Of a stretch of 64,000 bases of DNA, positions 7,848-53,872 are shown piece by piece. Location: positions 672,001 to 736,000 of the forward strand of contig OY762428.1 in assembly GCA_963665665.1 (NCBI GenBank), written 5' to 3'. Within the stretch, counting starts at the first letter, position 1, and the number at the start of each line of letters is the position of its first letter. Under the pieces are notes generated by a model. The model saw nothing but the letters and a program-made list of their open reading frames with translations. It was not told where the DNA came from and ran no database searches. The position numbers and the translations under genes were made by a program. The DNA comes from Candidatus Kapaibacterium sp. (GTDB lineage: Bacteria > Bacteroidota > Ignavibacteria > Kapaibacteriales > UBA2268).

Positions 7848-10718
7848 ATGATAAAAAAATTATTTCCAATAATAATACTAACAATTGCGGCAATTTTATC
7901 AGTTGCTGAAAGTATTGCCGGAACAGTTATTATCAAGATAGATATTGAATCAGAACTATTTAGTAAATGGCAAAGCGCCGGAAAAAATTATAATTTTCCT
8001 GAGTTTTCGGGATTGATAGATCAGGTTAGTTCCAAACCATTGATTAGAGAAAAATTATTAGAAAAAGCATCTGAAAAATTATATGGATCATCGAATCTGA
8101 AATCCGGTTCGATGAGAAATATTAATTCCTTATCTGGCCTTTGCGTAATTAACTACAAGGAAGGGCCGGCAGAAGAAATTTCAGCTTCCAAACTCAGATC
8201 ACACCCTGATATTATTTACGCCGAGCCGTTCCCCCGAAGAAACTTTTCATTTATCCCGAATGATCCATATATTGACTTTCAGCCTTATCTTGATTCAATC
8301 CGGGCTTACAAGGCATGGGACGAAATTGATGCTGGTTCTGAAATATTAATTGGTATCGTCGATACAGGCATTGATTTTGATCATGTTGAATTAAAAAATA
8401 GAATATATAATAATCCCGGTGAAACCGGCGAAGACAAAGACGGCAACGATAAAAGAACAAACGGTATTGATGATGATGAAAATGGTTTTATTGATGATTG
8501 GCGAGGTTGGGACTTTGCCGGTGCCGACGGAAACACACAGGATAATGATCCATACCCGGGGAACCCTCACGGCACACATGTTGCCGGAATCTCGGCTGCC
8601 GAGGTAAATAACGAAACCGGTATTGCAGGCGTTTCGCCCTATGCTAAATTATTACCTGTTAAAGTGGGACTTGATTTTTCTTTCGGCACATCAGTCTATA
8701 ATGCTTTCGAAGGCCTGCTTTACGCTGCTGTAGTCGGATCAGATATAATCAATTGTTCATGGGGCGGGGAAAACAGCTCGGAAGCTGAAGCAGAGATTGT
8801 GGCTCTTGCAATTGACATGGGCTCTGTTATTGTTGCTGCTGCCGGTAATGACGGCGATAATATCAACAACTATCCGGCTGCATATAAAGATGTTATTTCG
8901 GTTGCATCACTTGATGGTGATAACAAAAAATCATCATTTTCCAACTATTCTTATGATGTTGACATTTCAACCTATGGCAGATATATTTATTCTACTGTTC
9001 CAAATGACGAGTATGATTACATGGACGGTACATCCATGGCTTCGCCTGTTCTTGCAGGAATAGCTGCGCTTGTTAAAGCAAAGTTCCCTGATTATTCACC
9101 AGTCCAGATAGGTGAACAAATCAAAGCAACCGCAGATGATATTTATTATATAAACGACTATTACAAAGAATTTCTCGGTAAGGGAAAGGCTAATGCATAC
9201 AGGGCTGTTACGGAAACTGCTACAAAATCAGTTATAATATCTGATTACAAACTGATTGATGACAACGGGGACGGAATAATTGAAGAAGGTGAAAAAGTAA
9301 CTCTTGACCTGATAATACACAATGTTCTTGCAGGAACAGACAGTATCGGAATATCAATATCTCCCGAAAGTTTTTATCAACCATATTTTACTGAAGATGA
9401 AATTTATATCGGCAGTATGAATCCCTCGGAGATAAAAACTATTCCTGCCGCCTTTGAGTTCACTGTCCCTGATAAAATTCCTTATGATTACATGATGAAA
9501 TTTAAAATTATTGTTGGCAGCGGTACAAAACGTTATGACCTGGAACTGCTTACCATGACTGTTAAGCCGTCATACCGGACTTTTGACAACAACAATTTGT
9601 CTGTAACAATAAACAGCGCCGGTAACATAGCATACAATGACTACCCGGATAATCTCCAGGGAAACGGATTCAGGCTCAGGAACAGCTCGGATTTGCTTTA
9701 TGAAGGAGCCCTAATGGTCGGAGTCTCGCCGGAACGTGTATCCAACGGGGCAAGGGGTGAAGATCAGCTTGAAAAAGTCTATGATTTTGTTATAGACAGT
9801 GTTATCTCTGAAAAATATTCACCTGACTTCAATGCCTGGATTGGAATCACTGAATTCTCGGATATGAACGATGAAAATGATGCCGGTATAAAGGTTCTTC
9901 AGAAAGTTTTCCAAAGCGTGAACAAAGCAGACAGTAATTTTATAATTTTAACTTATGATATAATAAATACTTCCGGATTTCCTTTTGATTCTTTATATGC
10001 CGGGTTATTCTTCGACTGGGATATAGGAACATCAGGCTCGAATAACAGGGTATCTTATGATATTTATCGCGGTTTCGGTTATTGTAAGAATCTTGCAGTT
10101 GATTCGCTGCCGATAACAGGTGCAAAACTATTAACCCAGCAACCTCTGAATTACTTTGCGATGGATAATGACGGGAACGGCGGAACTAATCCGGGAATAT
10201 GGGATGGTTTTACAACAACTGAAAAATGGAATGTAATGTCCGGTGGCATGGCACGCCTTGCATCCGGAATCACGGATGTATCTATGGTTATAAGTGCCGG
10301 CCCGGTAAACATGAGGGCAGACGATACGGTAAGAGTCAGTTTTGCCGTGCTTGCAGGTAAAGATGCGGATGAAATTGTAAATGCACTTGAAGCAGCTAAA
10401 GCATTTGCTGCCGAACATGATCTGGACAGGAATATATACTCCTCTCCCCCGTCTGTGGATTCTTTGATATCAATTTATCCGAATCCCTCGCCCGGCGATA
10501 TAATACGGGCAAAGTTCGGCCTTGCGAATTCATCGGAAGTAAGTATTGAGATTTTTGATATGGCAGGAGCTATTGTTAAGGAAGTGTTAAAGAAAAACTT
10601 CCCCCCGGATATTCATACTATTGATATTGACCTTAACGATCTGCCTGTTGGCGCCTATTGGATAAGAATAAAAACTGAATCAGAAGAACTGGCAGAAAAA
10701 ATCATCATTAACAGATAA
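7848..10718 (+). CDS. S8 subtilisin-like serine protease with T9SS C-terminal sorting domain
   Basis: Triad motifs VDTG, HGTHVAG, GTSMASP; signal peptide; C-terminal IYPNP...GAYWIRI...KIIINR. Confidence 0.92.
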   Translation: MIKKLFPIIILTIAAILSVAESIAGTVIIKIDIESELFSKWQSAGKNYNFPEFSGLIDQVSSKPLIREKLLEKASEKLYGSSNLKSGSMRNINSLSGLCVINYKEGPAEEISASKLRSHPDIIYAEPFPRRNFSFIPNDPYIDFQPYLDSIRAYKAWDEIDAGSEILIGIVDTGIDFDHVELKNRIYNNPGETGEDKDGNDKRTNGIDDDENGFIDDWRGWDFAGADGNTQDNDPYPGNPHGTHVAGISAAEVNNETGIAGVSPYAKLLPVKVGLDFSFGTSVYNAFEGLLYAAVVGSDIINCSWGGENSSEAEAEIVALAIDMGSVIVAAAGNDGDNINNYPAAYKDVISVASLDGDNKKSSFSNYSYDVDISTYGRYIYSTVPNDEYDYMDGTSMASPVLAGIAALVKAKFPDYSPVQIGEQIKATADDIYYINDYYKEFLGKGKANAYRAVTETATKSVIISDYKLIDDNGDGIIEEGEKVTLDLIIHNVLAGTDSIGISISPESFYQPYFTEDEIYIGSMNPSEIKTIPAAFEFTVPDKIPYDYMMKFKIIVGSGTKRYDLELLTMTVKPSYRTFDNNNLSVTINSAGNIAYNDYPDNLQGNGFRLRNSSDLLYEGALMVGVSPERVSNGARGEDQLEKVYDFVIDSVISEKYSPDFNAWIGITEFSDMNDENDAGIKVLQKVFQSVNKADSNFIILTYDIINTSGFPFDSLYAGLFFDWDIGTSGSNNRVSYDIYRGFGYCKNLAVDSLPITGAKLLTQQPLNYFAMDNDGNGGTNPGIWDGFTTTEKWNVMSGGMARLASGITDVSMVISAGPVNMRADDTVRVSFAVLAGKDADEIVNALEAAKAFAAEHDLDRNIYSSPPSVDSLISIYPNPSPGDIIRAKFGLANSSEVSIEIFDMAGAIVKEVLKKNFPPDIHTIDIDLNDLPVGAYWIRIKTESEELAEKIIINR

Positions 10719-10769: not shown

Positions 10770-10970
10770 ATGAAGATTTCAAAAATGGACAGATACCTTG
10801 AATTATCCGAATTGATAAAGAAATATGAGAAGGATTTTAACAAGTTTTATAACAAAGGCAACAAGACTGCCGGTATAAGGCTTAGAAAGCACATGCAGGA
10901 ACTTCGCACATGGGCCAAGATGGTCAGGTTTGAAGTGCAGAACCTGAATAAGGAAAGAACCAAAGATTAA
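10770..10970 (+). CDS. Small basic histone H1-like (Hc1-family) protein; start may be 10785
   Basis: KFYNKGNKTAGIRLRKHMQEL motif typical of this family. Confidence 0.75.
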   Translation: MKISKMDRYLELSELIKKYEKDFNKFYNKGNKTAGIRLRKHMQELRTWAKMVRFEVQNLNKERTKD

Positions 10971-11995
10971 TTTTCAGCCTGGTCGGATTCAATAGAAGTT
11001 TTTTTGGCAGGAATTTCCAATAACTCACGAGTCAGTTTTTTTACTTCTGCCCTGAGTTCATCAATAAGGTCATTCCGGATTTTACCTTTTACGAACCTGA
11101 TCATATTTAGTGTGCCTTCGCTCAGGTCGCAATAGTGGAGTTCAATTTCAGCACCTTCGGGTGTTCTTTTGAACATTCCGGTAATATAAATTTGTACTTC
11201 AAGATCACTGAGAGCTTTAATTTCATAAGACGTTGGTGCCTTAAAATTTTCAATGCCAAACATATTGAACATAGCATAAATGGAATCTCTTGACTCAGTA
11301 TCGTACACAACATGAGTGGGGCTTTCAATAGCAGCTTCAAAAATCGATTCCGCAACATCATAGGAAATTATCTCTTTACTTTTGAACAATTCCCAGTCCT
11401 TCTGATTCGGATCGTTCAGGAACATAAGTCCGCCAACCACAGTTGTCTTTGCCGGCAACACCCTGAAACTGCCTTCGAGATCAGCAAATAGTTCAGGCTT
11501 GTTTTCAGATTCTGCCAAAGCCCTCTGAACAGCTATCAAAATAGTAGGGTCATACAGAGGTTTGTTGTCATTTTCATGCCTGAACCTGAGTAGCGAATAA
11601 CCTATTCCCCTGCTCTCTTTATTATTTTTCACCTTTTTGCTAACCATTTCAATCCTTACCATATTCTTCAATTGCTGGACGTTAAAGAACAGGATTTTAT
11701 CTACATCAAGTTCCCTGGCAATATTCAGGGCTGTTGGTTCCTTTCCCGATTCTTCAATAATCGAAGATACCGAGTCTCTTTCAGTAAGTCCGATAACTTT
11801 ATAATCTTTTGTAAGGCCGGCAGCAAGAGTCAGCGCAGCTTCAATCTTATAATCATCAAGGAATTCAGGAGTATTTTCTGAAAACAGGCATTGCCCAATC
11901 ATCAGTTTAGTTTTATTATCATTTGAATACAGAGTATTTGCAAATAAAACAATCGTAAAAATTCCTAGCGTTATATATCTTGTCATTCCAGCCAT
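10967..11995 (-). CDS. Hypothetical exported protein, possibly two related domains
   Basis: 342-aa ORF with signal peptide; internal echo ERDSVSSII / SRDSIYAMF. Confidence 0.6.
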   Translation of the reverse strand: MAGMTRYITLGIFTIVLFANTLYSNDNKTKLMIGQCLFSENTPEFLDDYKIEAALTLAAGLTKDYKVIGLTERDSVSSIIEESGKEPTALNIARELDVDKILFFNVQQLKNMVRIEMVSKKVKNNKESRGIGYSLLRFRHENDNKPLYDPTILIAVQRALAESENKPELFADLEGSFRVLPAKTTVVGGLMFLNDPNQKDWELFKSKEIISYDVAESIFEAAIESPTHVVYDTESRDSIYAMFNMFGIENFKAPTSYEIKALSDLEVQIYITGMFKRTPEGAEIELHYCDLSEGTLNMIRFVKGKIRNDLIDELRAEVKKLTRELLEIPAKKTSIESDQAEN

Positions 11996-12159
11996 TACAA
12001 TTACTTAATTGTTAAGAAAAACTAAAAAACAAGTTAAGGAACTTCGTTTAATTACACAAATTTTTAAATATCAAATTCTCTAATCTTCCTTAATTTGAAT
12101 TTTAGGACTCAGGAATCCACGTAAATTCAGACTTTGTGATTTTGATTTTTCCAATACAT

Positions 12160-12410
12160 TTCCCTGTCCACCGCTGGCGCCGACGAGTCGGGAAAGTGCG
12201 GGGGTGGATTCTTAAAATTCCCCTCCAGTGGAGGGGTGGCGAGCGCAGCGAGACGGGGTGGTTTCTTTTTCTTAGTCCCAAGGTATTTTTATCCACGAGC
12301 TAAAGCACGTGGCTATTGAATTTTGCGATATTCTGGATGGATTGTCATTCTGAGCGCCAGCGAAGAATCCATTCTTAATGCACTATCTGCAAACAAAGAT
12401 GGATTCTTTT
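12160..12410. repeat. Cluster of REP-like palindromes of several families
   Basis: CCCCTCCAGTGGAGGGG hairpin; 31-bp TATCCACGAGCTAAAGCACGTGGCTATTGAA at 12290-12320; TGTCATTCTGAGCGCCAGCGAAGAATCC...GGATTCTT. All recur at 42690-43320 or 44410-44500. Confidence 0.85.
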
Positions 12411-12463
12411 TCCGATTGTTGGCCAATAATTTTAAAAATCCCCCCTAATCGCCTCATTCTTTT

Positions 12464-13543
12464 GCTCTGTCCCCCCGTTCTTCCACCCCAATGAACAGGC
12501 CGCCGGCCTTAATTCCCCAACCTGTGGTTTCAATGAACCGGATAATTCCCTTACTTCAATGCTGTTTTGAACCAGAATTCAAATGTTTGGGCTAAATGCT
12601 TTGTTGGCAGAGCTTTAAACTGCCTTGGCCGGAGGTATTGAACTACTGTTTGGCCTTATTGTAGTGAAATTTGGCCTCATTGAACACTTGGTTGGCTTTA
12701 CTGAACACTTGGTTGACCTTACTGAACACTTGGTTGGCTTTACTGAACACTTGGTTGACCTTACTGAACGCTTGTTTGACCTTACTGAACACTTGGTTGA
12801 CCTTACTGAACACTTGTTTGACCTTACTGAACACTTGTTTGACCTTACTGAACGCTTGGTTGACCTTACTGAACGCTTGGTTGACCTTACTGAACGCTTG
12901 GTTGATCTTACTGAACGCTTGGTTGATCTTACTGAACATGTTCTTTGCCTCCGACCAAGAGTTCAATGCCTCCGACCAAGAGTTCAATGCCTTCAACCAA
13001 GAGTTCAATGCCTCCGACCAAGGCAGCAATGACTCTGACCAGGGCGGCAATGACTCCGACCAAGGCATCAATAAAGCAAAACATTGGTGCAATAGTGTCG
13101 TCCAAGAGTTCATTATCTTCAAACAAGGCGGCAATGACTTCGAGCAAGGCGGCAATAACTCCGGCCAAGGCGGCAATGACTTCAACCAAGGCGTCAATAA
13201 CTCCGACCAAGGCGGCAATAAAGCAAAACATTGCTGCAATAGTGTCGACCAAGACCTCAATACCTCTGACCCCTCCCAAACCCTCCCCGAAGGGGCGGGC
13301 TTTGAAGAAGAATAAGGCAACAACAGAATAAAACATTGATGCAATAACTTAGAACATTGGTGAAATGCCGCTGACCCTTCCTACCTCCCCCCGGCCCCCT
13401 CCTTGGGAAGGAGGGGGAGTTAATTCTATGATATTTAACTTCTTATCCCCTCCTAAAGTAGGAGGGGAATACAGGGGAGGTTTTCTTTCTTTGCTTCCGA
13501 CCAGTGCATTATTATCCACGCGCTAAAGCACCTGGCTATTGAA
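12464..13543. repeat. Copy 1 of a ~1.07-kb element made of head-to-head 21-bp tandem arrays
   Basis: Array A 12681-12932 (12 units, TGAACRCTTGKTTGACCTTAC-like); centre GAACATGTTC 12934-12943; array B 12947-13261 (15 units, GCCTCCGACCAAGAGTTCAAT-like); collinear with 43341-44399. Confidence 0.95.
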
Positions 13544-13561
13544 ATTTTCCTCCTTTCTCCT

Positions 13562-13643
13562 CCTTCCCAAGCCCCGCTTGGGAAGGCAAATACCACAGGA
13601 AAAAAAAGAAAACATCACATCTAAGCAGGGGCTTAGATGCGAG
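13562..13643. repeat. Inverted pair of REP-like hairpins (REPIN-like doublet)
   Basis: CCTTCCCAAGCCCCGCTTGGGAAGG (13562-13586) and CATCTAAGCAGGGGCTTAGATG (13618-13639) in opposite orientation. Confidence 0.6.
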
Positions 13644-13646
13644 TAT

Positions 13647-13688
13647 AAAAAAAATCCGGGCAATGGACCTTTCCACTACCCGGATTTT
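13647..13688 (-). terminator. Probable intrinsic terminator of the 13698-15950 gene
   Basis: AAAATCCGGG...CCCGGATTTT stem followed by a T-run on the minus strand, just after the stop codon. Confidence 0.6.
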
Positions 13689-13697
13689 ATTTTTGCC

Positions 13698-15950
13698 TTA
13701 CCTTTCAATTATCAATGTCTTAACGCCGGGCATTAACTCGTGAGGTCCGGAATTAATCGAAGAACGGACGTAATATAATCCGTTTGGAATATCATCAAGA
13801 GCTACTCTTAATTCTTCTCCGGGACGAGATTTTGTATTAAATACTACAGAGCCAAGCTGATTGACTATCTCAATATTCAAAACACTGCTTTCATCGGTTG
13901 AAGCCGGAGTAAATGCAGTGATATAAACAAAATCTTCGGCAGGGTTGGGGGAAATCGAAATAATCTCATTTCTTTCATCTTTATCGTCTTGATTATCTAC
14001 ACCGACATATACTTTTTTTGAACGTACAAATCCTTCAAAACCAAGATTTCCGACATAGCGCCCTGATGGGTGAGGAAAAACTCTATATTCTCCATAACTT
14101 CCATAAGATTCAACTGAATCGAGCAGTTTAAGTTCATGGTTTGAATTTATTCTTTCAAATAGCAAGTATTTTCCTTCATGCCAGGTTGTAAACAAAAATT
14201 TGTCATCAAACCCAAGGTAGGACTGAACTTTCGCATTAAATTCTCCAAAGTCCGAAATAAATTCAACCTCCTGCCAGGATTCACCATAATCACTAGTATA
14301 AAAATTAGTAACATTACGCAGAGTTGCATATCCTTCTCCTGAATTATTGAAGTTAAAACTATTAACTTCCATACCTAAATGATTATGCACTTTCTTTTGC
14401 CAGGTTTTTCCTTTATCTTTTGATACATAAATTAACTCTTCCATACCACCAACAAAATACCAGTCTAAGCTGTTAATACCTATGCAATATTGTATTGATG
14501 GGAAATCAATTTCAAGAGTATCCCATGATTTACCGTCATCGGTTGAGAGTTGAACCCCGCCTCCCAAAAGCATTCCTAAAATATTACCTTCCGAATCAAC
14601 TTTTAGATCGTCAAAAGGAACATACCCTTCACCTTCATAACTGTATATCAATCCATCTGAAAATATTTCCCAGCTATCTCCCTTATTGGTTGATCGATAG
14701 ATACCTTCGCCATAATATTCACTTGCTAGGATACTTCCGGCTTTTGTTTCAACTAAAGAAGTAAACATTTTATTACAAAAATCAAAATATTCCCAGGTTT
14801 CTCCCATATCAGTTGTTTTCATAATATTGGGATAGTAAGTGAATATATCACCATTTGAGAATATTCTCATATCCTGAAAATAATATGAATTTATATTGCT
14901 TTCCATAAATTCCCAGGTTTCCCCTTTATCTGTTGATTTAAAGATACCCCAACTTCCATAGCTTTTAAAATAAACTCCTTTGTTATTAATATCAAAACCT
15001 TCAATTGAAGATGGCGTATGATAATAGTCTTCGAAACCATTATCCAATATTTCCCACGATTGTCCCGTATCACTTGTTTTAGCAATACCATCCGGAATAT
15101 TTGCAATAAAATTATTTTCGTCATAAAAAATAATATCGCTAATAAAAAAATTTCGGTAGGGGCGATATATTGGATCGAATGTTTGATATTGGTCTTTGGT
15201 ATAACAAAGTATTTCATTAAAAGAACAAATATTAAAATTCCATTTGTATTTATTTACAAAATAAATGACATTTCTATTAATATTCTCAAGTATTTCCCAT
15301 GATTTCCCACCATTATTAGTTTTTATTATTGTAGAATTTAAACGATCAATATAACAATTACAAATAATTTGATTTTCATTAAATGCATAAATATTATTTA
15401 TTCTCGAATTTGAAAATACAGTATCAATAATTGATATCCATGACTGGCCTAAATCATTTGATTTATAAATACCAAATTCATAAGAAAATGGACTATCAAT
15501 TATGATATTAGTAGCAACATATAGATTATTATCAAAATCAATATCGTAGTCAATGAGATCCTCATCAAAATCATGAGGATTAGATGATTTTGGAAAAGGA
15601 GAAGATTGTATCCAACTGTCACCATCATCAGTTGAAATATATATACACCCACCTAAATCTCTTGATTTAAAATATAATCTATCCTCAGTATCAATTTTAA
15701 AATCATTTTTTCTTCCTCTAAATAATACATCCAATTTAGAATGTCGGGTTACTGATTCATAGGTCTTGCCATCGTCGTAAGACCTGAATATTCCATTATG
15801 AGTCAAGGCAAAAATAGTTCCTTTGCTATTAATTTCTATCTGTGAAACATTATGGTATTTGATATTATTCAATACTTCCCAAAATGAATCATCTGAATAC
15901 AAATTGAGAGTAACAATGAAAAGTAGAAATGTTGTAACGGATTTCATCAT
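13698..15950 (-). CDS. BNR/Asp-box repeat beta-propeller protein with T9SS C-terminal domain
   Basis: Many S/TxDxGxT/SW repeats; C-terminal ISPNPAEDF...GLYYVR...KTLIIER. Confidence 0.85.
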   Translation of the reverse strand: MMKSVTTFLLFIVTLNLYSDDSFWEVLNNIKYHNVSQIEINSKGTIFALTHNGIFRSYDDGKTYESVTRHSKLDVLFRGRKNDFKIDTEDRLYFKSRDLGGCIYISTDDGDSWIQSSPFPKSSNPHDFDEDLIDYDIDFDNNLYVATNIIIDSPFSYEFGIYKSNDLGQSWISIIDTVFSNSRINNIYAFNENQIICNCYIDRLNSTIIKTNNGGKSWEILENINRNVIYFVNKYKWNFNICSFNEILCYTKDQYQTFDPIYRPYRNFFISDIIFYDENNFIANIPDGIAKTSDTGQSWEILDNGFEDYYHTPSSIEGFDINNKGVYFKSYGSWGIFKSTDKGETWEFMESNINSYYFQDMRIFSNGDIFTYYPNIMKTTDMGETWEYFDFCNKMFTSLVETKAGSILASEYYGEGIYRSTNKGDSWEIFSDGLIYSYEGEGYVPFDDLKVDSEGNILGMLLGGGVQLSTDDGKSWDTLEIDFPSIQYCIGINSLDWYFVGGMEELIYVSKDKGKTWQKKVHNHLGMEVNSFNFNNSGEGYATLRNVTNFYTSDYGESWQEVEFISDFGEFNAKVQSYLGFDDKFLFTTWHEGKYLLFERINSNHELKLLDSVESYGSYGEYRVFPHPSGRYVGNLGFEGFVRSKKVYVGVDNQDDKDERNEIISISPNPAEDFVYITAFTPASTDESSVLNIEIVNQLGSVVFNTKSRPGEELRVALDDIPNGLYYVRSSINSGPHELMPGVKTLIIER

Positions 15951-18923: not shown

Positions 18924-21092
18924 TTATTTCTTAATAAATTTTACTATTTCATTTTTAAGGAATATATAATACATTCCCGGAGCTAAACCGGCAACATTAA
19001 ATCTTAGTTTTCCGGTTGCGCTATCAGGCATTAATAGGAACTCTTCGCCCCTAACGTTATATGCTGAAATCTCATCGAAAATTCCAATTTGTTCAATATT
19101 GTCAAATTGAATCTCGATGAAATCATCAGCTGGATTGGGATATGCGTATGTTCTGATTTTTTCATTATTTCCTTCAACCGATCGAAGAATATCAACAGGT
19201 ACAGGAGTTTCGTAGTAATAATAATAGAATGGGCATTGAGTTGTTGCGTAGAAATATCCTTTCCTGCTAACAAACGGAGGCGCATTACCTACCAGATTTT
19301 CTTTCGATCCGTCAAAATAATTTATAACATAGAAAGAATATGTTTGATATACCGGATCGTGTATATAAGAGTACCAGATTGCATCGCTGTTTCCGTATAG
19401 TCCTCTTTTTTGCATTTCCCATGCTTTCGGATACTGGCTAATTCCCCTGTAATAATGTGTGCTGAAGAAATTGTCGTAAACAATAACTGTATCATATGAA
19501 GTTTTTAGCAGCAGGTTCGTCCCGTCAGCAGAAATATCTTCAATATCATAACCCATCAGGGCATCTCCAAGCTCAATTTCATCAGATTCACCGTTAGCGG
19601 GATCAAAATTAAAAAAGCTGTTATCCTGAGTAAAATAGCGTATTCGGCCGAACTCGTTTGCAACCATTTTCATAATTTTCATATTTTCTGTTTTGATATC
19701 TGCCTGGCTTATTAACTGCAATTCCGGATAGCTATATGTTTTAATTTTTGTATTATTGCATACAATTAGTTTATCAAAGCCGCTGAAGTGTAAATATGAT
19801 ATATTGCCAAGTTCGGTATTAATAATTGTTTCGACAGAATCGCCTTCTATATCGTATTTACAGACATTACCATTTTCTGTAAGGATTAATGAAGTCAGGT
19901 CGTCAGAGAACGCTCGGGGAATATAATCGCTGTATATATACTTAACAAATCCGCCTTCATCGTTTACGAGCGCATTGAATGTATTAATATTTTCATCCGG
20001 ATACTGGCTTTTCCCATAAACCGACATTAGTAAATTATCCTTGCCGATCACTATTTTCTCGGGATAGCATACATAACCTGCCGGGACGGAAGTTATTCTT
20101 CTTTCACTGCTCCTGTTGTAAATGAAGTATATAGTAGCAGCCCATGGCATATCGGCATGTGTTCCGCAATAGAAAGTTTCAGGTTCAAAAGTAAGAGCCC
20201 TTTCTCCGTCCGAACACATATAATAATAGTTAGGTGTTCCGGGCAGATATGTCTGCCCGTTTGTTCTGCTAATAATAGTATCTGCTTCAATATCAAAAAG
20301 AACTGAATATCCGTCAAAACCGTAAGTTAAGTAATTCAGGTCTTTTGAAAATTCAAAGTATGTAAATTGATCAATGGCAGTATGGGTAAATTCAATTTTC
20401 CCCGTTTCCGATTCCGCAATAGCAATTTTATCTCCCTTTGTATAAATTATCTTAGTACCGTTATTTCTAAAACTTACATTTGTACATCCTTCAACAAATG
20501 GAATTTTTCTTTTACTTTCTTTTGAATCGAAATCGAAAAATTCCAGACTGTCACCCTTATGCAGGCAGTATTCTTCTCCTTCAGGATTTAGGTAAGCACT
20601 TGAATAAAAGGAAGGATTAACGTCAATTTGAAAATTTTCAACAATCGCACCTGTCCCAAGGCTGTACGAAGCAAATCGCATAGTCGATTTGTCAAAGAAA
20701 TAAACCATTTCCCCGTTGGATGAAAATGCTTTTTGCAATCGTGAGTCGGAAAAATTAAATATTGTTACAATTTCCTGTAAAGGTTCCCATGTCCTGAAAT
20801 TGTATATCATTAATTTACTGTCAACCATAAATGCTATCCGGCTGCTTTCATCATTAATAATAGCACCGTAGCAATCCGATCCGTAGTGTGGAACAAAATT
20901 GAACTCTTTGTTGGCTCCGGTTGTCAGATCTACCAGGAAATAATGAGTTTTCTTATCATCGCCGACAATTATTTCATTGTCATTATACGGGTTTACAATA
21001 TAAGAAACATCAAAATACTCCCTGCTGTTCCATGAAAATGCAACAGATTTAACTAAAATTAAAAAGAGAGTAGCGGTAATTAACTTTTTCAT
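18924..21092 (-). CDS. Secreted beta-propeller-like protein with T9SS C-terminal domain
   Basis: Signal peptide; repeated FSxDG-type blades; C-terminal YPNPADDF...GMYYI...KFIKK. Confidence 0.75.
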   Translation of the reverse strand: MKKLITATLFLILVKSVAFSWNSREYFDVSYIVNPYNDNEIIVGDDKKTHYFLVDLTTGANKEFNFVPHYGSDCYGAIINDESSRIAFMVDSKLMIYNFRTWEPLQEIVTIFNFSDSRLQKAFSSNGEMVYFFDKSTMRFASYSLGTGAIVENFQIDVNPSFYSSAYLNPEGEEYCLHKGDSLEFFDFDSKESKRKIPFVEGCTNVSFRNNGTKIIYTKGDKIAIAESETGKIEFTHTAIDQFTYFEFSKDLNYLTYGFDGYSVLFDIEADTIISRTNGQTYLPGTPNYYYMCSDGERALTFEPETFYCGTHADMPWAATIYFIYNRSSERRITSVPAGYVCYPEKIVIGKDNLLMSVYGKSQYPDENINTFNALVNDEGGFVKYIYSDYIPRAFSDDLTSLILTENGNVCKYDIEGDSVETIINTELGNISYLHFSGFDKLIVCNNTKIKTYSYPELQLISQADIKTENMKIMKMVANEFGRIRYFTQDNSFFNFDPANGESDEIELGDALMGYDIEDISADGTNLLLKTSYDTVIVYDNFFSTHYYRGISQYPKAWEMQKRGLYGNSDAIWYSYIHDPVYQTYSFYVINYFDGSKENLVGNAPPFVSRKGYFYATTQCPFYYYYYETPVPVDILRSVEGNNEKIRTYAYPNPADDFIEIQFDNIEQIGIFDEISAYNVRGEEFLLMPDSATGKLRFNVAGLAPGMYYIFLKNEIVKFIKK

Positions 21093-23114: not shown

Positions 23115-24200
23115 TTAATTATTTTTATACCTTCTAAGTTTATAAACATAAGCCAGAATCTGTGCCACAGCCCTGAACAAGTCTTCCGGAATTTCCTGGT
23201 CAACTTCCACGTTATAGAACAGGGTTCTTGCCAGGGGAGGCTCTTCCACAATCGGGATACCCTCGAATGTTGCTTTTTCCCTTATTTGCAAAGCCAGGTA
23301 GTCAACGCCCTTGGCTACAACTTTAGGGGCGTTCATCTCGCCCTGGTTATATTTCAATGCCACTGCAAAGTGCGTCGGGTTGGTGATAACAACATCGGCC
23401 TCGTTCACATTTTTCATCATCATCTGGCGCAGGCGGGACCGCATAATAGAACGCAGCCTTGCCTTGACCTTCGGGTCGCCTTCCGTCTGCTTGGTTTCTT
23501 CCTTTACTTCCTGCTTGGTCATTTTCATATCTTCTTTATAGCGGTGTTTCTGATAAATATAGTCAGCAACCGCAATAATGATATAAACACCCCCAACATA
23601 AAGTACCATCCGAAAACTCAGCTCCGCCATGTAGGTACCAATATCCATAAAAGGTGCATCCAGCATAGCTATAATGTTATCGGATTCGTCTCTTAAAACC
23701 AGGTATACCACTATGCCGAGAATAAAAATCTTTGCGAAATTCTTTATCAACTCGAAAAATGACCTGCCGGAGAAAAATATCTTCTTCAACCCGGACAGAG
23801 GCTTGAACATCTGAGTTGCCTGCCCCCCCTCGGAAAACTTCTTGGTGGCAATTTGAATGCCTACCTGGCTAACTTCTGCTGCGAATATAATTACAAAAAC
23901 AATAACCAGTATGGGAAGCAGATGTTTGGCAAGGAAGAGTAAAATATCTGAATAAAATGTAGTAACATTAGCAAAATTTATCTCGATAGAACCTGAATTG
24001 TAGAAAAGATCCTTCATCAGGTTCTGGTAGCTGCTTAGCATACCACCGCCAAGCATAAACACTACCATACCGCCAAGAAGCAGCACGGACGCAGTAGTAA
24101 CATCCATACTTTTTGAAACCTGTCCACGAAGCCTGGCTTCGTGGAGCCGCTTCGCGGTGGCCGGTTCCGATTTTTCCTGGCCGTCTTTATTCTCAGCCAT
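23115..24200 (-). CDS. flhB: Flagellar export protein FlhB
   Basis: EPATAKRL N-terminus, EGDPKVK, NPTH autocleavage motif. Confidence 0.95.
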   Translation of the reverse strand: MAENKDGQEKSEPATAKRLHEARLRGQVSKSMDVTTASVLLLGGMVVFMLGGGMLSSYQNLMKDLFYNSGSIEINFANVTTFYSDILLFLAKHLLPILVIVFVIIFAAEVSQVGIQIATKKFSEGGQATQMFKPLSGLKKIFFSGRSFFELIKNFAKIFILGIVVYLVLRDESDNIIAMLDAPFMDIGTYMAELSFRMVLYVGGVYIIIAVADYIYQKHRYKEDMKMTKQEVKEETKQTEGDPKVKARLRSIMRSRLRQMMMKNVNEADVVITNPTHFAVALKYNQGEMNAPKVVAKGVDYLALQIREKATFEGIPIVEEPPLARTLFYNVEVDQEIPEDLFRAVAQILAYVYKLRRYKNN

Positions 24201-24360
24201 TCAAGCTCCTATGGTTCATTTGTTCGATAACAATAATTACTAAGTTTTACTTCCTTTTAAGAAGTTGGCTCAAAATCCTGAAAATCAGTCATTCTGAACT
24301 CAAAATTCAAAATAAAGAGACATAACAATCAAGTATTGATTACATCAAATCAAAGAATTC

Positions 24361-25158
24361 CTACACATTTGCAGGATTCAAACTCATTAAAATTTTCATA
24401 GTCTCGGATTCCATAGCACCGAGAGAATATTTCGCTACAAGAACAAAAACAGGCACTGATGCAAATAATACCAGCAACCCCACCGCCACTTTCAACTGGA
24501 AACTCAGGATAAAAATATTTGTTTGGGGCGCAACCCTTGCCAGCAAAGCAAGTGAAAGATTAGTAAGAAACAATGCAACTAGAAGCGGCGCTGACATTTT
24601 AACGCCGATTATCAGCACACTCGTAGCCATTTTAACAAATAATGCTATTGTGCTACCCGATACGGCAAATGTAGTTAAAGGAACGATCCTGGCGCTGGCA
24701 TATACAGCTTCTATTATAAAATGATGCCCGTTTATAAACAGGAAAAGCATCATCATGGCCAGTGTTTTAAATTCGCCAACCAGTGTAGGACTTGTTTCGT
24801 CCCTGTTAAACATCATCGAAGTATGATATCCCATATCAAAATCAATTAACCCGCCGGCAAACCTTGCTGCAAAAAAAGCCATATTTGCTGAAAATCCGAT
24901 TGCCACGCCAACCATAAATTCTTTTATTGCAAGAACGCCCATATACCACAAGTGCATTTCCAGTTGGGGTTGTTCTTCCCAGTAAGTTGTGGTAACAATA
25001 ATAGCAAGCCCTATAGAAAGCAATAGTTTTACATGTGCCGGAATAACCGAGTTTTTGAAAATCGGCGCGGCAGTGAACATCCCTGCAATTCTAATGAAAA
25101 ACAGGACACCGATAAAGAATTTTCCGGTAAGAAAATATAATGTTGCGTCGTCGATCAT
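24361..25158 (-). CDS. fliR: Flagellar export protein FliR
   Basis: AGGLIDFDMG, NGHH, LARVAPQTNIF; between fliQ and flhB. Confidence 0.93.
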   Translation of the reverse strand: MIDDATLYFLTGKFFIGVLFFIRIAGMFTAAPIFKNSVIPAHVKLLLSIGLAIIVTTTYWEEQPQLEMHLWYMGVLAIKEFMVGVAIGFSANMAFFAARFAGGLIDFDMGYHTSMMFNRDETSPTLVGEFKTLAMMMLFLFINGHHFIIEAVYASARIVPLTTFAVSGSTIALFVKMATSVLIIGVKMSAPLLVALFLTNLSLALLARVAPQTNIFILSFQLKVAVGLLVLFASVPVFVLVAKYSLGAMESETMKILMSLNPANV

Positions 25159-25421
25159 TTAAGCTGCGGGATCATGTTTATTAATTCTACCGTAAAAGTC
25201 TTCAGGTTTGTTAGCATATATGGAAGAATAAGTACACTGATAAGAAATACCGCAATTAATTTCGGGACGAATGTAAGTGTCTGCTCGGAGATTGTGGTGG
25301 CTGCCTGGAAAATGGATATCGTCAGCCCCACGAGCAAAGAAACAAGCAGTAGCGGCCCGCAAACTATTATCACATAATAGAAGGCATCCCTCACTATCGA
25401 TACAACCATTTGATCCGTCAT
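25155..25421 (-). CDS. fliQ: Flagellar export protein FliQ
   Basis: GLTISIFQAATTISEQTLTFVPKL. Confidence 0.95.
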   Translation of the reverse strand: MTDQMVVSIVRDAFYYVIIVCGPLLLVSLLVGLTISIFQAATTISEQTLTFVPKLIAVFLISVLILPYMLTNLKTFTVELINMIPQLK

Positions 25422-25500
25422 TTTATCACCCCTTTTTTATTCGATTTCATTTTCATTAATTTTTAAGTAAACCATATTCAAAATGTGTTATATTTCCAAG

Positions 25501-26307
25501 CTAACCGCCACCGGTTATACTCCTCATCAGGGAATCCACCACCAGATGCCATCCGTCAACAAGTATGAACAGAAGCACCTTTATCGGCAGAGAAATAAGC
25601 TGCGGCGGCAACAGGAACATACCGAGAGACATTAAGGTACTCGCTATGATCATATCCAGCACAAGGAATGGTATGAATAGTAAGAATCCTATCTGGAAAG
25701 CCATCCTAATCTCGCTTAAGGAGAAAGCAGGAATGACAGTCCAGGTGGAAACATCATCAATATTATCGGGTTTATCCTCGCCGCTAAGCTTTATGAACAG
25801 CCCCAGATCTTCTTCACGAGTGTGTTTAAGCATAAATTCCCGGAATGGAAGTATAATATTATCCACCGCTTCGGCCTGTGAAATTTCCTCGCGCAAATAT
25901 GGCTGTAAGCCCTTGTCATTGGCTTCATTCAGTACCGGCTGCATAACAAAAAAAGTAAGGAACAGAGCCAGCCCCGTCAACATCTGGTTTGGCGGCTGTG
26001 TATGTGTACCCATAGCCTGCTTCAAAAAATGGAATACAATTATTATTCTCGTAAAGGAAGTCATCATTATCAGAATTGAGGGAGCAAGAGACAGAACAGT
26101 CATTACTGCAAGTATTTGCAGCGTGGTAACAAATTCACCCTGATCAGAATTTTTATCACCTACCTGTAGTGATACCGAAGGTATGCTGATACCGCTGCCC
26201 TGATTTGCAGGCTGCTGCTGTTGGGCAAATATATTATTACTCCCCGCAAAAAACGTTAGCAGGAGTGCAATTATTAGAAATCTGATTTTGCAATAAACAA
26301 TATGCAT
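25501..26307 (-). CDS. fliP: Flagellar export protein FliP (ATG 26307 preferred over the track start 26358)
   Basis: MTSFTRIII, PPNQ, PAFSLSE, DGWHL motifs; signal peptide follows 26307. Confidence 0.93.
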   Translation of the reverse strand: MHIVYCKIRFLIIALLLTFFAGSNNIFAQQQQPANQGSGISIPSVSLQVGDKNSDQGEFVTTLQILAVMTVLSLAPSILIMMTSFTRIIIVFHFLKQAMGTHTQPPNQMLTGLALFLTFFVMQPVLNEANDKGLQPYLREEISQAEAVDNIILPFREFMLKHTREEDLGLFIKLSGEDKPDNIDDVSTWTVIPAFSLSEIRMAFQIGFLLFIPFLVLDMIIASTLMSLGMFLLPPQLISLPIKVLLFILVDGWHLVVDSLMRSITGGG

Positions 26308-26353
26308 TTTGCCATAGTTACAAAACGTTAATAATATTCCGTACATGCTGCAA

Positions 26354-26369
26354 TTCAATGATTATGCCA
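26354..26369 (-). promoter_or_regulatory. Possible sigma-54 (-24/-12) promoter for fliPQR-flhB
   Basis: Minus strand TGGCAT-AATCA-TTGAA versus consensus TGGCAC-N5-TTGCW, about 47 bp upstream of the fliP ATG. Confidence 0.45.
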
Positions 26370-42689: not shown

Positions 42690-43322
42690 TCAGCCATCCT
42701 GAGCGAAGCGAAGGATGCATTCTTAATACATTATCTGCGAACAAAGATGGATTCTTCCGTCGCAAGCACCGGATAATTCCCCTCCCTTGGAGGGGACTAA
42801 AGGGGTGGTTTTATTTCTTTCTGATGCTAAATCTCTATCCATGAGCTAAAGCACGTGGCTATTGAATTTGACGATTATAAGGCTGGAAGGTCATTCTGAG
42901 CGCCAGCGAAGAATCCATTCTTATTACACTATCTGCGAACAAAGATAGATTCTTCGGTCGCTTCGCTCCGTCAGAATGACGGATGGGAATGTCCCCCGCT
43001 GGCGGGGGTGTCCGAAGGACGGGGGTGGACTTCCGGAAAATTCCCCTCGTTGAGGGGTGGCGAGCGCAGCGAGTTCCCGACACGTCGGGACAGGCTGGGG
43101 TGGATTCTTTTTCTTTGCCTCCGCACCTTGCACATTTATCCACGAGCTAAAGCACGTGGCTATTGAACTTGACGATGGTAAAACTGCATGTCATCCTGAG
43201 CGAAGCGAAAGATCCATTCTTCATACATCATCTGCGAAGGAAGATGGATTCTTCGGTCGCAAGCTCCGGAAGCCTGCCCCTGCCTGCACCGATTTATCGG
43301 TGACGTGTCGGGGAATGACAAC
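42690..43322. repeat. Mosaic cluster of REP-like palindromes
   Basis: Three (GT)CATYCTGAGCG...GATTCTT modules, 31-bp repeat at 42836 and 43137, CCCCTC...GAGGGG hairpins, nested CCGACACGTCGG palindrome. Confidence 0.85.
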
Positions 43323-43340: not shown

Positions 43341-44399
43341 GCCCTATCCCCCAGTTCTTCCACCCAAATGAACAGGCCGCCGGCCTTAATTCCCCAACCT
43401 GTGGTTTCAATGAATCGAATAATTTCCTTAATTCAAGGCTGTTTCGAACCAGAATCCTGATGTTTGGGCTAATTGCTTTGTTAGCAGGGCTTTATACTGC
43501 CTTGGCTGGAGTTATTGAACTACTGTTTGGCCTTAATGTAGTGAAATTTGGCCTCATTGAGGACTTGTTTAGCCTTATTGAGGACTTGGTTGACTTTACT
43601 GAGGACTTGGTTGACCTTACTGAGGACTTGGTTGGCTTTACTGAACACTTGGTTGGCTTTACTGAACACTTGGTTGGCTTTACTGAACGCTTGGTTGATC
43701 TTACTGAACACTTGTTTGACCTTACTGAACGCTTGGTTGATCTTACTGAACGCTTGGTTGATCTTACTGAACATGTTCTTTGCCTCCGACCAAGAGTTCA
43801 ATGCCTTCAACCAAGGCATCAATGACTCCGACCAAGGCAGCAATAACTCCGAACAAGGCAGCAATAACTTCGAACAAGGCATCAATAACTTCGAACAAGG
43901 CAGCAATGACTCCGAACAAGGCAGCAATATCTTCAACCAAGGCAGCAATAACTCCAACCAAGGCAGCAATAACTCCGACCAAGGCATCAATGACTCCGAC
44001 CAAGGCAGCAATAACTCCGACCAAGGCAGCAATAAAGCAAAACATTGCTGCAATAGTGTCGACCAAGAGTTCATTATCTTCAAACAAGGCGGCAATAGCT
44101 TCAAACAAGAGTTCATTATTATCAAACATCGGTGCATTGCTTCTGACCCCTCCCAAACCCTCCCCGAAGGGGAGGGCTTTGAAGTAAAACAAGGCAGAAA
44201 TGGATTCAAACATTGGTGCAATGCCGCTGCACCTGCCTACCTCCCCCCGGCCCCCTCCTTCGAAAGGAGGGGGAGTTAATTCTATGATATTTAACTTCTT
44301 ATCCCCTCCTAAAGTAGGAGGGGAATACAGGGGTGGTTTTCTTGCTTTGCTTACGAACAGGGCATTATTATCCACGAGCTAAAGCACGTGGCTATTGAA
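43341..44399. repeat. Copy 2 of the ~1.07-kb head-to-head 21-bp array element
   Basis: Array A 43558-43767 (10 units), centre GAACATGTTC 43769-43778, array B 43782-44138 (17 units); left flank differs from copy 1 at about 20 of 217 positions by manual count. Confidence 0.95.
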
Positions 44400-44514
44400 T
44401 TTTGATGATGGACGGGGGTGGAGTTCCGGAAAATTCCCCTCCAGTGGAGGGGTGGCGAGCGAAGCGAGACGTGGTGGATTCTTCATGCATTATCTGCGAG
44501 AGAGGCTGGAATTT

Positions 44515-45096
44515 TTACATTTCATCATCTTTCAGGCTTTCATAAAGGAGGTCTATATGATATGAAAATCCGGGAATAAGTTTGAATCGCCAGGCATCGT
44601 CCATGTATATAATACCATTGCAGAGTTCCGCCACTGCCGAAGCTATAAGCCCGTAGCTGATTCCCCAGAGATTGACACTGCCTTCGTACCTGGAAAAACG
44701 CCATAGTTTATTTACTTCTCTGGCTTTTTCCAGATGCATATCAATATCTTTTATTACCTGGTTATTTAGCTTTATTTCATCAATGAACCACCATGGGTCG
44801 CTGTCCTCCCAGCTTTTATCATAAAGCGTTTCGTTCTCGATTTTTATCTTTATTCCATTATTAATATAATTTACTTTGCAGTATTCATTTGCTTCCCAAC
44901 AGAAAGGCTGCCCTGTTTCAGGAACGATAATGCCTTTATTTTTGTCAGGGGAATGAATTTCAACGGAAAGCTCCACAGGCTGGTTAAAACTGAAAAGATG
45001 AAGCAGGCTGTTAATTTTCTTTTGGCTCAATTCCAGAACATCGCCAAATGTGAGAATATTGTTTTCTGTAGCGACAACTTCAAATATTTTACTCAT
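44515..45096 (-). CDS. Hypothetical protein
   Basis: 193-aa ORF with ATG start downstream of the vor operon terminator; no family recognised. Confidence 0.6.
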   Translation of the reverse strand: MSKIFEVVATENNILTFGDVLELSQKKINSLLHLFSFNQPVELSVEIHSPDKNKGIIVPETGQPFCWEANEYCKVNYINNGIKIKIENETLYDKSWEDSDPWWFIDEIKLNNQVIKDIDMHLEKAREVNKLWRFSRYEGSVNLWGISYGLIASAVAELCNGIIYMDDAWRFKLIPGFSYHIDLLYESLKDDEM

Positions 45097-53758: not shown

Positions 53759-53775
53759 TATTTTAAAAAAACAAC

Positions 53776-53800: not shown

Positions 53801-53872
53801 ATGCTCAGTAATTACAATCGTAAATTTGCTCCATAATTATTTTGTTCAACAAAATTAGATGGGGCTTTTTTT

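What the first reader, a model, noticed from the sequence alone, without database searches (positions are those of the whole stretch)
12464..13543. Kilobase element built from two head-to-head 21-bp arrays folding back on a central palindrome
Seen: 12 A units (TGAACRCTTGKTTGACCTTAC-like, 12681-12932) meet 15 B units (GCCTCCGACCAAGAGTTCAAT-like, 12947-13261) at the perfect palindrome GAACATGTTC. B is a diverged reverse complement of A (15/21 identity for the closest units) and the register is exact across the centre. The 21-bp phase extends into the apparently unique flanks: TGAAC...CCTTA recurs at 12492, 12534 and 12639, and B-like units resume at 13304 after a 42-bp stretch containing a hairpin. 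That gives about 21 units on the left arm and 20 on the right. Inference: this could be a long bulged RNA/ssDNA hairpin with 21-nt periodicity, or an oriented protein-binding array spaced at two helical turns (centromere- or iteron-like). It has no unique spacers and I recognise no described family. Best candidate for an undescribed system here.
Basis: partly seen in the sequence, partly recalled or inferred. Interest (0 to 1): 0.8.

Follow-up and report, generated by a model that had tools for sequence, protein, structure and literature searches.

The report
Fold-back 21-bp minisatellite repeat element
A real, kilobase-long intergenic repeat element made of two mirror-image arrays of 21-bp units, present twice in this bacterial chromosome piece, that looks non-coding and most resembles the mosaic "junk-like" repeat elements of other bacteria, though its function is unproven.

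Summary
It holds 12 A units and 15 B units meeting at GAACATGTTC in exact mirror register. The 21-bp phase runs from 12464 to 13546 (rank 1 of 21 offsets, 0 of 1000 shuffles).

New findings:
- A second copy lies at 43341-44402, 88% identical, differing by whole-unit indels.
- Both copies are bounded by a 30-bp direct-repeat motif and sit in intergenic islands of GC-rich hairpin modules.
- A 42-bp hairpin and a 126-bp predicted four-way junction lie inside the right arm, in phase.
- Neighbouring genes differ between the copies.
- Related sequence appears only as 8 unnamed predicted ORFs on 5 other contigs.

All frames are open, but none shows protein-level constraint: synonymous fraction is 0.13-0.26 over 120 differences. 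Start codons are not conserved and one copy carries stops.

The fold-back beats shuffles (z -6 to -7.7). That follows from the inverted duplication, and the arms match only 8-15 of 21.

Best reading (about 0.5): a lineage-specific, non-coding mosaic repeat element with an inverted minisatellite, akin to BrickBuilt, BIME and NIME elements. A functional RNA, a protein-binding scaffold or heptad-repeat genes are not excluded. Homologous DNA could not be fetched.

The parts
12291..12320 (+). 30-bp boundary motif (left copy of a direct repeat)
   Evidence: 5 matches in the window against 0.00 expected, all on the + strand: 12291, 13514, 42837, 43138, 44370. It is part of a 73-nt repeat family (D3).
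12464..12680 (.). Left arm, decayed 21-bp units (about 10 units) still in phase with the A array
   Evidence: In-phase offset ranks 1 of 21; 0 of 1000 shuffles reach it. Unit 12624-12644 resembles the reverse complement of inner B units. 20 differences in 217 nt against copy 2.
12681..12932 (+). A array, 12 units of 21 bp
   Evidence: TRF 12.3 copies, 93% matches; units listed.
12933..12946 (.). Junction with the perfect palindrome GAACATGTTC (12934-12943); centre of mirror symmetry
   Evidence: Identical in copy 2. The local fold of 12897-12980 has z -4.99 on + and -3.08 on -.
12947..13261 (-). B array, 15 units of 21 bp; a diverged reverse complement of A, with a 105-bp higher-order period
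   Evidence: TRF rows with periods 21 and 105; units; mirror identities 8-15 of 21.
13262..13303 (.). 42-bp GC-rich hairpin module lying in phase inside the right arm
   Evidence: Present in copy 2 at 44139-44180 with a perfect stem.
13304..13366 (-). Three further B-like units in phase
   Evidence: Rank 1 of 21 offsets, 0 of 1000 shuffles. Copy 2 has two such units because of a 21-bp indel.
13367..13492 (.). 126-bp module. An outer stem closes two 10-bp GC hairpins and an AT hairpin, giving a predicted four-way junction at about 13383-13482.
   Evidence: Same fold on both strands, z -2.42 and -2.96. Only 2 differences from copy 2 within 13380-13477, both in one loop. It is the most conserved part in the 7 related ORF translations.
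13493..13513 (-). Last B-like unit, in phase, abutting the boundary motif
   Evidence: part of the 73-nt family D3.
13514..13543 (+). 30-bp boundary motif (right copy, same orientation as the left one)
43138..43167 (+). Copy 2: left boundary motif (a further copy lies at 42837-42866)
43341..43557 (.). Copy 2: left arm, decayed units in phase
43558..43767 (+). Copy 2: A array, 10 units
43768..43781 (.). Copy 2: junction with the same palindrome (43769-43778)
43782..44138 (-). Copy 2: B array, 17 units
44139..44369 (.). Copy 2: 42-bp hairpin module, two B-like units, 126-bp four-way-junction module, last unit
   Evidence: Ungapped offsets 30877 and 30856 from copy 1.
44370..44399 (+). Copy 2: right boundary motif

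Best explanation
A non-coding, lineage-specific, dispersed repeat element of about 1.08 kb (about 1.25 kb with its 30-bp boundary motifs).

Build (shown):
- The core is a 21-bp minisatellite that was duplicated in inverted orientation about a short palindrome.
- The outer units have decayed.
- The inner units have been re-amplified into two different unit types, A on the left and B on the right.
- GC-rich hairpin modules sit in the right arm.

Setting (shown): it lies in intergenic 'repeat islands' with other short hairpin modules. This is the arrangement of the mosaic extragenic repeats of other bacteria.

Likely dynamics:
- Shown: the two copies differ by indels of 21, 42 and 63 bp.
- Inferred: unit number changes by slipped-strand mispairing or unequal exchange.
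- Inferred: the whole cassette is copied between intergenic sites, either by recombination at the shared boundary motif or by an enzyme encoded elsewhere.
- Inferred: the fold-back potential is a by-product of the inverted duplication. It could still make the element a hairpin in any transcript that reads through it, or a cruciform-prone site in DNA.
For: Dispersed element:
- There are two copies 31 kb apart, 120 differences in 999 aligned columns, with gaps of 42, 21, 63 and 21 bp only inside the phased region.
- The neighbouring genes are different and unrelated.
- Both copies lie in 1.7-1.9 kb gene-free gaps. One is downstream of a terminator-like hairpin and the other lies between convergent genes.

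Mosaic setting:
- The 30-bp motif occurs 5 times in direct orientation. It flanks both the array cassettes and a short 301-bp cassette without arrays.
- All 7 CCCCTCC...GGAGGGG hairpins of the 64-kb window lie in the two islands.
- Several other repeat families are confined to the islands (D3-D13).

Not coding:
- No frame has an excess of synonymous differences. Synonymous fraction is 0.13-0.26 in six frames element-wide, and 4:15 and 3:9 in the flanks for the two best frames.
- Copy 1 has in-frame stops where copy 2 is open.
- The + strand ORF has 0 relatives in the 5.8-billion protein set.
- The related ORFs start at different places, always just after a stop inside the boundary motif.
- Only sub-threshold or compositional coiled-coil matches appear in Pfam, NCBIfam and PADLOC.

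Fold-back not under strong constraint:
- The arms are 8-15 of 21 identical in mirror register.
- One related contig carries an A-type array without a B arm in the same frame.

Precedent: a 23-nt minisatellite with leader and tail, up to 991 nt, in 19 intergenic copies, in another member of the same superphylum (PMC4596501: abstract, section 5 and section 7 part 1 read).
Against: Signs of constraint that a purely selfish or neutral repeat does not predict:
- The four-way-junction module has 2 differences in 98 nt, and a left-flank block (12490-12537) has 0 in 48. The element-wide rate is 12%. By my own Poisson arithmetic these are about 6e-4 and 3e-3, but the blocks were chosen after seeing the data.
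- Two different GC modules are exact multiples of 21 bp (42 and 126), so the phase survives them.
- The same unit variants and a four-unit block recur in ORF translations from other contigs.

Other points against:
- The A array read on + and the B array read on - (homologous frames) have gene-like codon usage: 0.53-0.55 and 0.20-0.25, against 0.283 +/- 0.084 for real genes and -0.40 +/- 0.17 for wrong frames.
- There is no evidence of mobility. No terminal inverted repeats, no target-site duplication that I could define, and no transposase or REP-associated transposase among the 38 ORFs scanned.
- Copy number in the genome is unknown.
Confidence: 0.5

Rival explanations
1. A structured non-coding RNA of about 1 kb. 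A transcript through the element would fold into a long bulged hairpin with a 21-nt period (a 9-bp helix plus short helices per unit). It would be capped at one end by a conserved four-way junction, and might act as a scaffold or sponge for an RNA-binding factor.
For: The predicted fold-back pairs the arms unit by unit in both copies, z -5.95 to -7.68. The four-way junction is predicted on both strands. It is the best conserved part between copies and in the related ORF translations. Two stem changes inferred from those translations (Pro to Ser in stem codons, in P0001, P0002 and P0005-P0007) would be C-to-U on the - strand, that is G-U wobbles. This is inference from protein letters only.
Against: There is no Rfam match: the best of the 11 sub-threshold rows was 24.4 bits against a cut-off of 54, and one search found nothing here at gathering score. 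No promoter stands out: 5 sigma-70-like sites against 2.7 expected, and no Bacteroidota-type site in the islands. Arm complementarity is poor beyond the inner four units. Other inferred stem changes in the related ORFs are disruptive and uncompensated (Pro to His; Gly to Cys, Asp or Ala). The stable fold is expected from any inverted duplication. A left conserved block is not structured (z -1.0 and -0.8).
Confidence: 0.15
2. Two convergent small genes, or their decayed remains, encoding heptad-repeat proteins. One runs on the + strand through the A arm (...LTEHLVD... repeats after a hydrophobic N-terminus). The other runs on the - strand through the B arm (...IAALVGV... repeats). They are paralogues created by the inverted duplication and end at the central palindrome.
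For: 21 bp is seven codons. The best nucleotide alignment of A with the reverse complement of B puts these two frames in the same register. These are the two frames with gene-like codon usage and the highest synonymous fractions, 0.23 and 0.26. The - frame stops exactly at the junction in both copies. Copy 2 has an ATG-started 121-aa ORF on +. Gene callers predicted the - frame at 7 related loci.
Against: Synonymous fractions of 0.23-0.26 are what unconstrained sequence gives. Copy 1 has a stop at codon 12 of the + ORF and a stop splitting the - ORF. There are no relatives at all for the + ORF. Starts and ends of the - ORFs are not conserved. Perfect 10-bp GC hairpins lie inside the reading frame. 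Unit variation is not three-periodic. Any stop-free 21-bp repeat gives six open heptad frames. No family match passes other than compositional coiled-coil hits.
Confidence: 0.1
3. An oriented protein-binding array (centromere-, iteron- or nucleoid-organising-like). A protein would recognise the core shared by both unit types (CTTGGTYG on the inward-pointing strand). This core is spaced every two helical turns and converges on the centre.
For: The core CTTGG/CCAAG is the least variable part of both unit types. The period of 21 bp is kept even across the inserted GC modules. That would matter for helical phasing but not for a reading frame.
Against: No partition, replication-initiator or other DNA-binding gene lies next to either copy, and the neighbours differ. 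There are two copies 31 kb apart on a chromosome with housekeeping genes, and at least four related ORFs on one 5.46-Mb contig. Neither fact fits an origin or a plasmid centromere. There is no match in plasmid or phage collections.
Confidence: 0.08
4. An assembly artefact (collapsed or chimeric repeat).
For: Long tandem and inverted repeats are hard to assemble from short reads.
Against: Two copies in the window have the same architecture but 12% differences and different unit counts. Related sequence occurs on five other contigs from independent assemblies.
Confidence: 0.02

Closest known systems
BrickBuilt, the minisatellite-bearing MITE of Porphyromonas gingivalis, and MITEPgRS with 41-nt repeats (PMC4596501; abstract, section 5 and section 7 part 1 read)
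   Same: Both are intergenic, multi-copy and species-restricted. Both have a tandem array of about 20-nt units without spacers, flanked by unique 'leader' and 'tail' segments. Total length reaches about 1 kb. Unit number varies between copies. Annotation pipelines predict spurious ORFs over them. Both occur in the Bacteroidota-related superphylum and often lie beside type IX secretion cargo genes.
   Different: BrickBuilt has one array in one orientation, a 23-nt unit and IS5-like terminal inverted repeats. Here there are two arrays head to head about a palindrome, a 21-bp unit, GC hairpin modules in phase, and ends that carry a direct rather than inverted 30-bp repeat. No sequence comparison with BrickBuilt was made.
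Mosaic extragenic repeat clusters: BIMEs of enterobacteria and NIMEs of Neisseria (PMC3184786, passages read)
   Same: Both are islands of several short repeat families in intergenic DNA, often at the 3' ends of genes or between convergent genes. Both contain GC-rich stem-loops. In NIMEs, variable segments are bracketed by a short repeat, as the 30-bp motif brackets cassettes here.
   Different: Those clusters hold no long tandem arrays and no kilobase fold-back. The hairpins here lack the GTAG or CGTC tag of REPs (that tag is known to me from the search listing of PMC3733652 and from recall). No REP-associated transposase was seen in the window.
BOX elements of Streptococcus pneumoniae (PMC3184786, passage read; module details recalled)
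   Same: Both are modular: end modules with a variable number of tandem middle modules. Both are predicted to fold into a stable structure, are transcribed as part of neighbouring messages and sometimes carry small ORFs.
   Different: BOX has a 45-bp middle module in one orientation and is far shorter. There is no sequence relation.
Foldback transposons of Drosophila (recalled; Galileo seen only in the listing, PMC4168063)
   Same: Both have long inverted arms built from short tandem repeats that can abut with little or no central loop.
   Different: Foldback transposons are eukaryotic. Their arms end in conserved inverted termini and they are mobilised by a transposase. None of this is shown here.

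Membership tests
MITE (BrickBuilt type) | Terminal inverted repeats matching an IS family | tested here: not met
   The ends of the shared region carry the 30-bp motif in the same orientation on both sides. No inverted terminal pair was found.
MITE (BrickBuilt type) | Target-site duplication | not testable with these tools
   No empty site or homologous locus DNA could be fetched. The island ends are mosaic.
MITE (BrickBuilt type) | Internal spacer-free minisatellite between unique leader and tail; several intergenic copies | tested here: met
REP / BIME | 20-40 bp GC-rich extragenic palindromes clustered with other motifs | tested here: met
   7 CCCCTCC...GGAGGGG hairpins, all in the two islands; other island-only repeat families.
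REP / BIME | GTAG or CGTC tag at the foot of the palindrome, and a REP-associated tyrosine transposase in the genome | tested here: not met
   No such tag flanks the seven hairpins; one has GTAG inside its loop-stem boundary. No Y1-transposase domain appears among the 38 ORFs scanned. The rest of the genome was not seen.
NIME | Variable segments bracketed by copies of one short repeat | tested here: met
   The motif lies at 42837, 43138 and 44370, bracketing a 301-bp and a 1232-bp cassette, and at 12291 and 13514. This is an analogy of layout only; there is no sequence relation to Neisseria repeats.
Iteron origin or plasmid-type centromere | Adjacent initiator or partition genes; a single locus per replicon | tested here: not met
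   The neighbours are secreted-protein, helicase and metabolic genes and two unknowns unrelated to each other. There are two loci in 64 kb.
CRISPR array | Repeats separated by unique spacers; a known repeat family | tested here: not met
   Units abut without spacers. No CRISPR-DR family appeared in the Rfam scans.
Known RNA families (Rfam 15) | Match at the gathering score | tested here: not met
   Nothing in 11900-13750 reached a gathering score. The best was 24.4 bits against a cut-off of 54.
Coiled-coil protein families (Pfam ApoB100_C, Alanine_zipper, DUF948) | Homology beyond heptad composition; conservation of the protein | tested here: not met
   ApoB100_C scores 40.3 and 29.4 bits (cut-off 27). 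Alanine_zipper scores 25.2 (cut-off 23.1) in one copy and 22.8 in the other. These are repeat-composition matches among dozens of unrelated coiled-coil families. There is no synonymous excess.

The most novel reading that the evidence does not exclude
The element is a functional, previously undescribed class: a bacterial fold-back element whose two 21-nt-periodic arms and conserved four-way junction act together. It could work as a roughly 1-kb periodic hairpin RNA, or as a phased DNA scaffold loading many copies of one factor. Unit number would be tuned by slippage. The evidence for constraint is preservation of the 21-nt phase through two GC modules and the low divergence of the junction and of a 48-nt left block.
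Probability: 0.15. Interest if true: 0.75.

Novelty: new variant of a known kind. Interest (0 to 1): 0.45.

Why it matters
If it is only a mosaic repeat, it still has practical value:
- It adds a well-defined family to the few minisatellite-bearing intergenic elements known in bacteria.
- It explains a set of spurious 'hypothetical protein' calls made of heptads and Pro/Gly-rich stretches.
- It marks sites prone to unit-number change and to hairpin or cruciform formation.

If the signs of constraint are real, it would be a new kind of periodic nucleic-acid scaffold in a poorly studied phylum. Those signs are phase kept through inserted modules, a conserved four-way junction and unit types shared between genomes. 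It would then be testable directly with RNA-seq and pull-downs.

Tried and rejected
Searches for homologous DNA:
- The single genome-contig scan (after one search failed for lack of a conserved stretch) matched 20 stretches. It confirmed one locus, L001, from a Gammaproteobacteria MAG. That locus has no array and no hairpin module, so it is a chance match.
- blastn of 12291-13546 against plasmids and phages found no match.

Protein searches:
- The - frame of the B arm gave 7 hits.
- The 233-aa - frame spanning both arms gave 1 hit covering the A array only.
- The + ORF of the A arm gave 0 hits.
- The + 214-aa frame against 1.84 billion representatives gave 99 hits at E<=1e-3 and none at <=1e-30. 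The 8 of the 99 that I read were unrelated heptad or low-complexity repeats.

Tools that did not answer:
- The listing of cluster members did not answer because the database was off.
- The ESM Atlas did not answer.

Other tests:
- Unit-position entropy showed no three-base periodicity.
- Rfam at permissive threshold gave nothing credible.
- The Bacteroidota-type promoter pattern gave 3 matches against 4.9 expected, none in the islands.
- For the DnaA-box idea: the boundary motif begins with 8 of the 9 bases of the usual box consensus (recalled), but there is no cluster of full boxes.
- The two unknown neighbour genes are not related to each other.

Literature: six searches found no description of this unit, motif or architecture. 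They cover only the open-access library.

No structure or complex prediction was run, because a long helix from a heptad repeat would not discriminate between the readings.

Full report
**1. The observation.**

The feature is real and is described accurately. TRF finds a 21-bp array at 12681-12938 (12.3 copies, 93% matches) and another at 12949-13219 (12.9 copies, 72% matches). In register there are 12 A units (12681-12932), a 14-bp junction holding the perfect palindrome GAACATGTTC (12934-12943), and 15 B units (12947-13261).

Reflecting the sequence about the palindrome centre shows that the register is exact. Mirrored 21-mers match 13, 13, 15 and 13 of 21 for the four inner blocks, and 8-15 of 21 further out.

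The phase extends into the 'unique' flanks. Against the unit profiles, the in-phase offset ranks first of 21 in 12464-12680, in 13304-13366 and in 13262-13546. No shuffle out of 1000 reaches the observed score. Immediately outside (12100-12463 and 13547-13697) the phase is gone.

**2. What else is there.**

- **A second copy.** It lies at about 43341-44402 (A array 43558-43767, 10 units; same junction at 43768; B array 43782-44138, 17 units). The copies align with 120 differences in 999 ungapped columns. Within the phased region the only gaps are 42, 21, 63 and 21 bp. The sum of A and B units (27) and the distance from the left flank to the first GC hairpin (798 bp) are the same in both copies, with the centre displaced by 42 bp. 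This may be chance.
- **A boundary motif.** Each copy is bounded on both sides by a 30-bp motif in the same orientation. There are 5 matches in the window against none expected: 12291, 13514, 42837, 43138 and 44370. In the second island the motif also brackets a 301-bp cassette that has no arrays.
- **Modules in the right arm.** Two GC-rich modules are exact multiples of the unit. One is a 42-bp hairpin (13262-13303). The other is a 126-bp module (13367-13492) in which an outer stem closes two perfect 10-bp GC hairpins and an AT hairpin, giving a four-way junction on either strand.
- **Repeat islands.** The elements lie in gene-free gaps of 1.7 and 1.9 kb that also hold other short repeat families found nowhere else in the window. 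All 7 CCCCTCC...GGAGGGG hairpins are there. So is a 91-nt hairpin module with truncated copies.
- **The left flank.** It is itself old array. Unit 12624-12644 is close to the reverse complement of the inner B units, and the stretch before it resembles a recurrent B-arm variant. The whole element is thus one large, decayed palindrome whose inner units were re-amplified into two types.

**3. Context.**

The window is chromosomal. It encodes citrate synthase, malate dehydrogenase, RecQ, a 2-oxoacid:ferredoxin oxidoreductase, flagellar export proteins and five proteins with the type IX secretion sorting domain. That points to a flagellated member of the Fibrobacterota-Chlorobiota-Bacteroidota group; I could not name it.

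- Copy 1 lies between the 5' end of an unknown 342-aa gene and the terminator of a BNR/sortilin-like secreted protein.
- Copy 2 lies between convergent genes: a PKD-domain secreted protein and an unknown 193-aa protein.
- The two unknowns are unrelated to each other.
- There is no consistently linked gene, and no transposase, partition or replication gene beside either copy.

**4. Coding or not.**

Because the units contain no stops in four of six frames, long ORFs run through the arrays. Two frames deserve attention. One is the + frame of the A arm (heptads LTEHLVD). The other is the - frame of the B arm (heptads IAALVGV, IELLVGG). They are homologous frames under the A/reverse-complement-B alignment.

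In favour of these frames:
- They have gene-like codon usage: 0.53-0.55 and 0.20-0.25, against 0.283 +/- 0.084 for real genes and -0.40 +/- 0.17 for wrong frames.
- The - frame stops exactly at the junction.

Against them:
- The synonymous fraction of codon differences between the copies is 0.13-0.26 in all six frames (0.23 and 0.26 in these two), which is what unconstrained DNA gives. In the non-array flanks it is 4:15 and 3:9.
- Copy 1 has a stop at codon 12 of the + ORF and a stop that splits the - ORF.
- The + ORF has no relative among 5.8 billion proteins.
- The 7 relatives of the - ORF start at different points, always just after a stop inside the boundary motif, and end at different points.
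- Perfect GC hairpins lie inside the frame.
- Unit variation is not three-periodic.
- Family matches are compositional coiled-coil hits only.

I conclude that the element is not a functioning gene pair. An origin from a heptad-repeat gene cannot be excluded.

**5. Folding.**

The arrays fold back on themselves better than shuffles:
- RNA, + strand: -201.1 against -155.5 +/- 6.5 kcal/mol, z -7.05.
- RNA, - strand: z -5.95.
- RNA, copy 2: z -7.68.
- DNA parameters: z -3.88.

About one 9-bp helix and two short ones form per unit. The arms are poorly complementary beyond the inner four units, and one related contig holds an A-type array with no B arm in the same frame. No covariation test was possible with two paralogous copies.

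**6. Signs of constraint.**

- The four-way-junction module has 2 differences in 98 nt, both in a loop. A left block (12490-12537) has none in 48. The element-wide rate is 12%.
- The junction module is also the most conserved stretch in the related ORF translations.
- The same unit variants, including a four-unit block, recur in those translations.
- Two independent GC modules keep the 21-bp phase.

These points stop me from calling the element mere debris. Recent gene conversion between copies, or origin of the modules in situ, could explain them.

From the protein letters of the relatives I infer some stem changes that would be G-U wobbles on the - strand. Others would break the stems without compensation. 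This is inference only.

**7. Distribution.**

Relatives are few. Seven ORFs lie on four contigs (four of them on one 5.46-Mb contig), and one A-array ORF lies on a fifth contig. Nothing turned up in plasmids or phages. Nothing real turned up in the one scan of species-representative genomes. The family is lineage-restricted.

**8. Comparison and verdict.**

The closest described things are:
- The BrickBuilt element of Porphyromonas gingivalis: a 23-nt minisatellite with leader and tail, up to 991 nt, 19 intergenic copies, often beside type IX secretion cargo genes (PMC4596501, sections read).
- The mosaic repeat clusters BIME and NIME, and the modular BOX elements (PMC3184786, passages read).
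- In architecture only, eukaryotic foldback transposons (recalled).

The element fails the defining tests of a MITE (no terminal inverted repeats) and of REPs (no tag, no associated transposase seen). It is not an iteron origin, a centromere locus, a CRISPR array or any Rfam family.

I file it as a new variant of the mosaic, minisatellite-bearing intergenic repeat. Its distinguishing features are the head-to-head arrays with exact register, the in-phase hairpin modules and the direct-repeat boundaries.

Six literature searches found no description of it in the open-access library. Subscription journals and supplements were not covered.

Noticed in passing
window 62066-62131 (+): Rfam DUF3800-VIII RNA motif, 54.9 bits (gathering score 40.2). 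It is the only Rfam family found in the window, and lies just beside a Peptidase_M78 (IrrE-like) ORF at 62153-63238 (-).
   Followed up: no
window about 50938-63238: Probable integrated mobile island. It holds a tyrosine integrase (50938-52143), a D5_N/DUF5906 primase-helicase (54169-56472), type I restriction-modification genes HsdM (57363-58889) and HsdS (59644-60936), and DUF6946. GC falls to 0.27 at 52-54 kb.
   Followed up: no
window 42890-42980; truncated copies at 12343-12408, 42691-42756, 43188-43253: A 91-nt hairpin module with 10-bp terminal inverted arms (z -2.6). It looks like a separate small MITE-like family nested in the same islands.
   Followed up: partly
window 12289-12296, 13512-13519, 43136-43143, 44368-44375: The 30-bp boundary motif begins with TTATCCAC, 8 of the 9 bases of the usual DnaA-box consensus (recalled). 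4 of the 6 occurrences of this octamer in the window are in the motif. No cluster of full boxes was found.
   Followed up: partly
window 12464-13262 and 43341-44139: Both copies have exactly 798 bp (38 units) between the left end and the 42-bp hairpin, and 27 A+B units. The A:B split differs (12:15 against 10:17) and the centre is shifted by 42 bp. This may be chance, or a constraint on total length.
   Followed up: partly
window 23115-26358 with 7848-10718, 13698-15950, 18924-21092, 39645-42650: Flagellar export genes (FlhB, FliR, FliP) sit in the same genome as several type IX secretion sorting-domain proteins. This narrows the host to a flagellated lineage of the FCB group.
   Followed up: no
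window 10967-11995 (-) and 44515-45096 (-): The two ORFs next to the elements have no Pfam, NCBIfam or PADLOC match and are unrelated to each other.
   Followed up: partly
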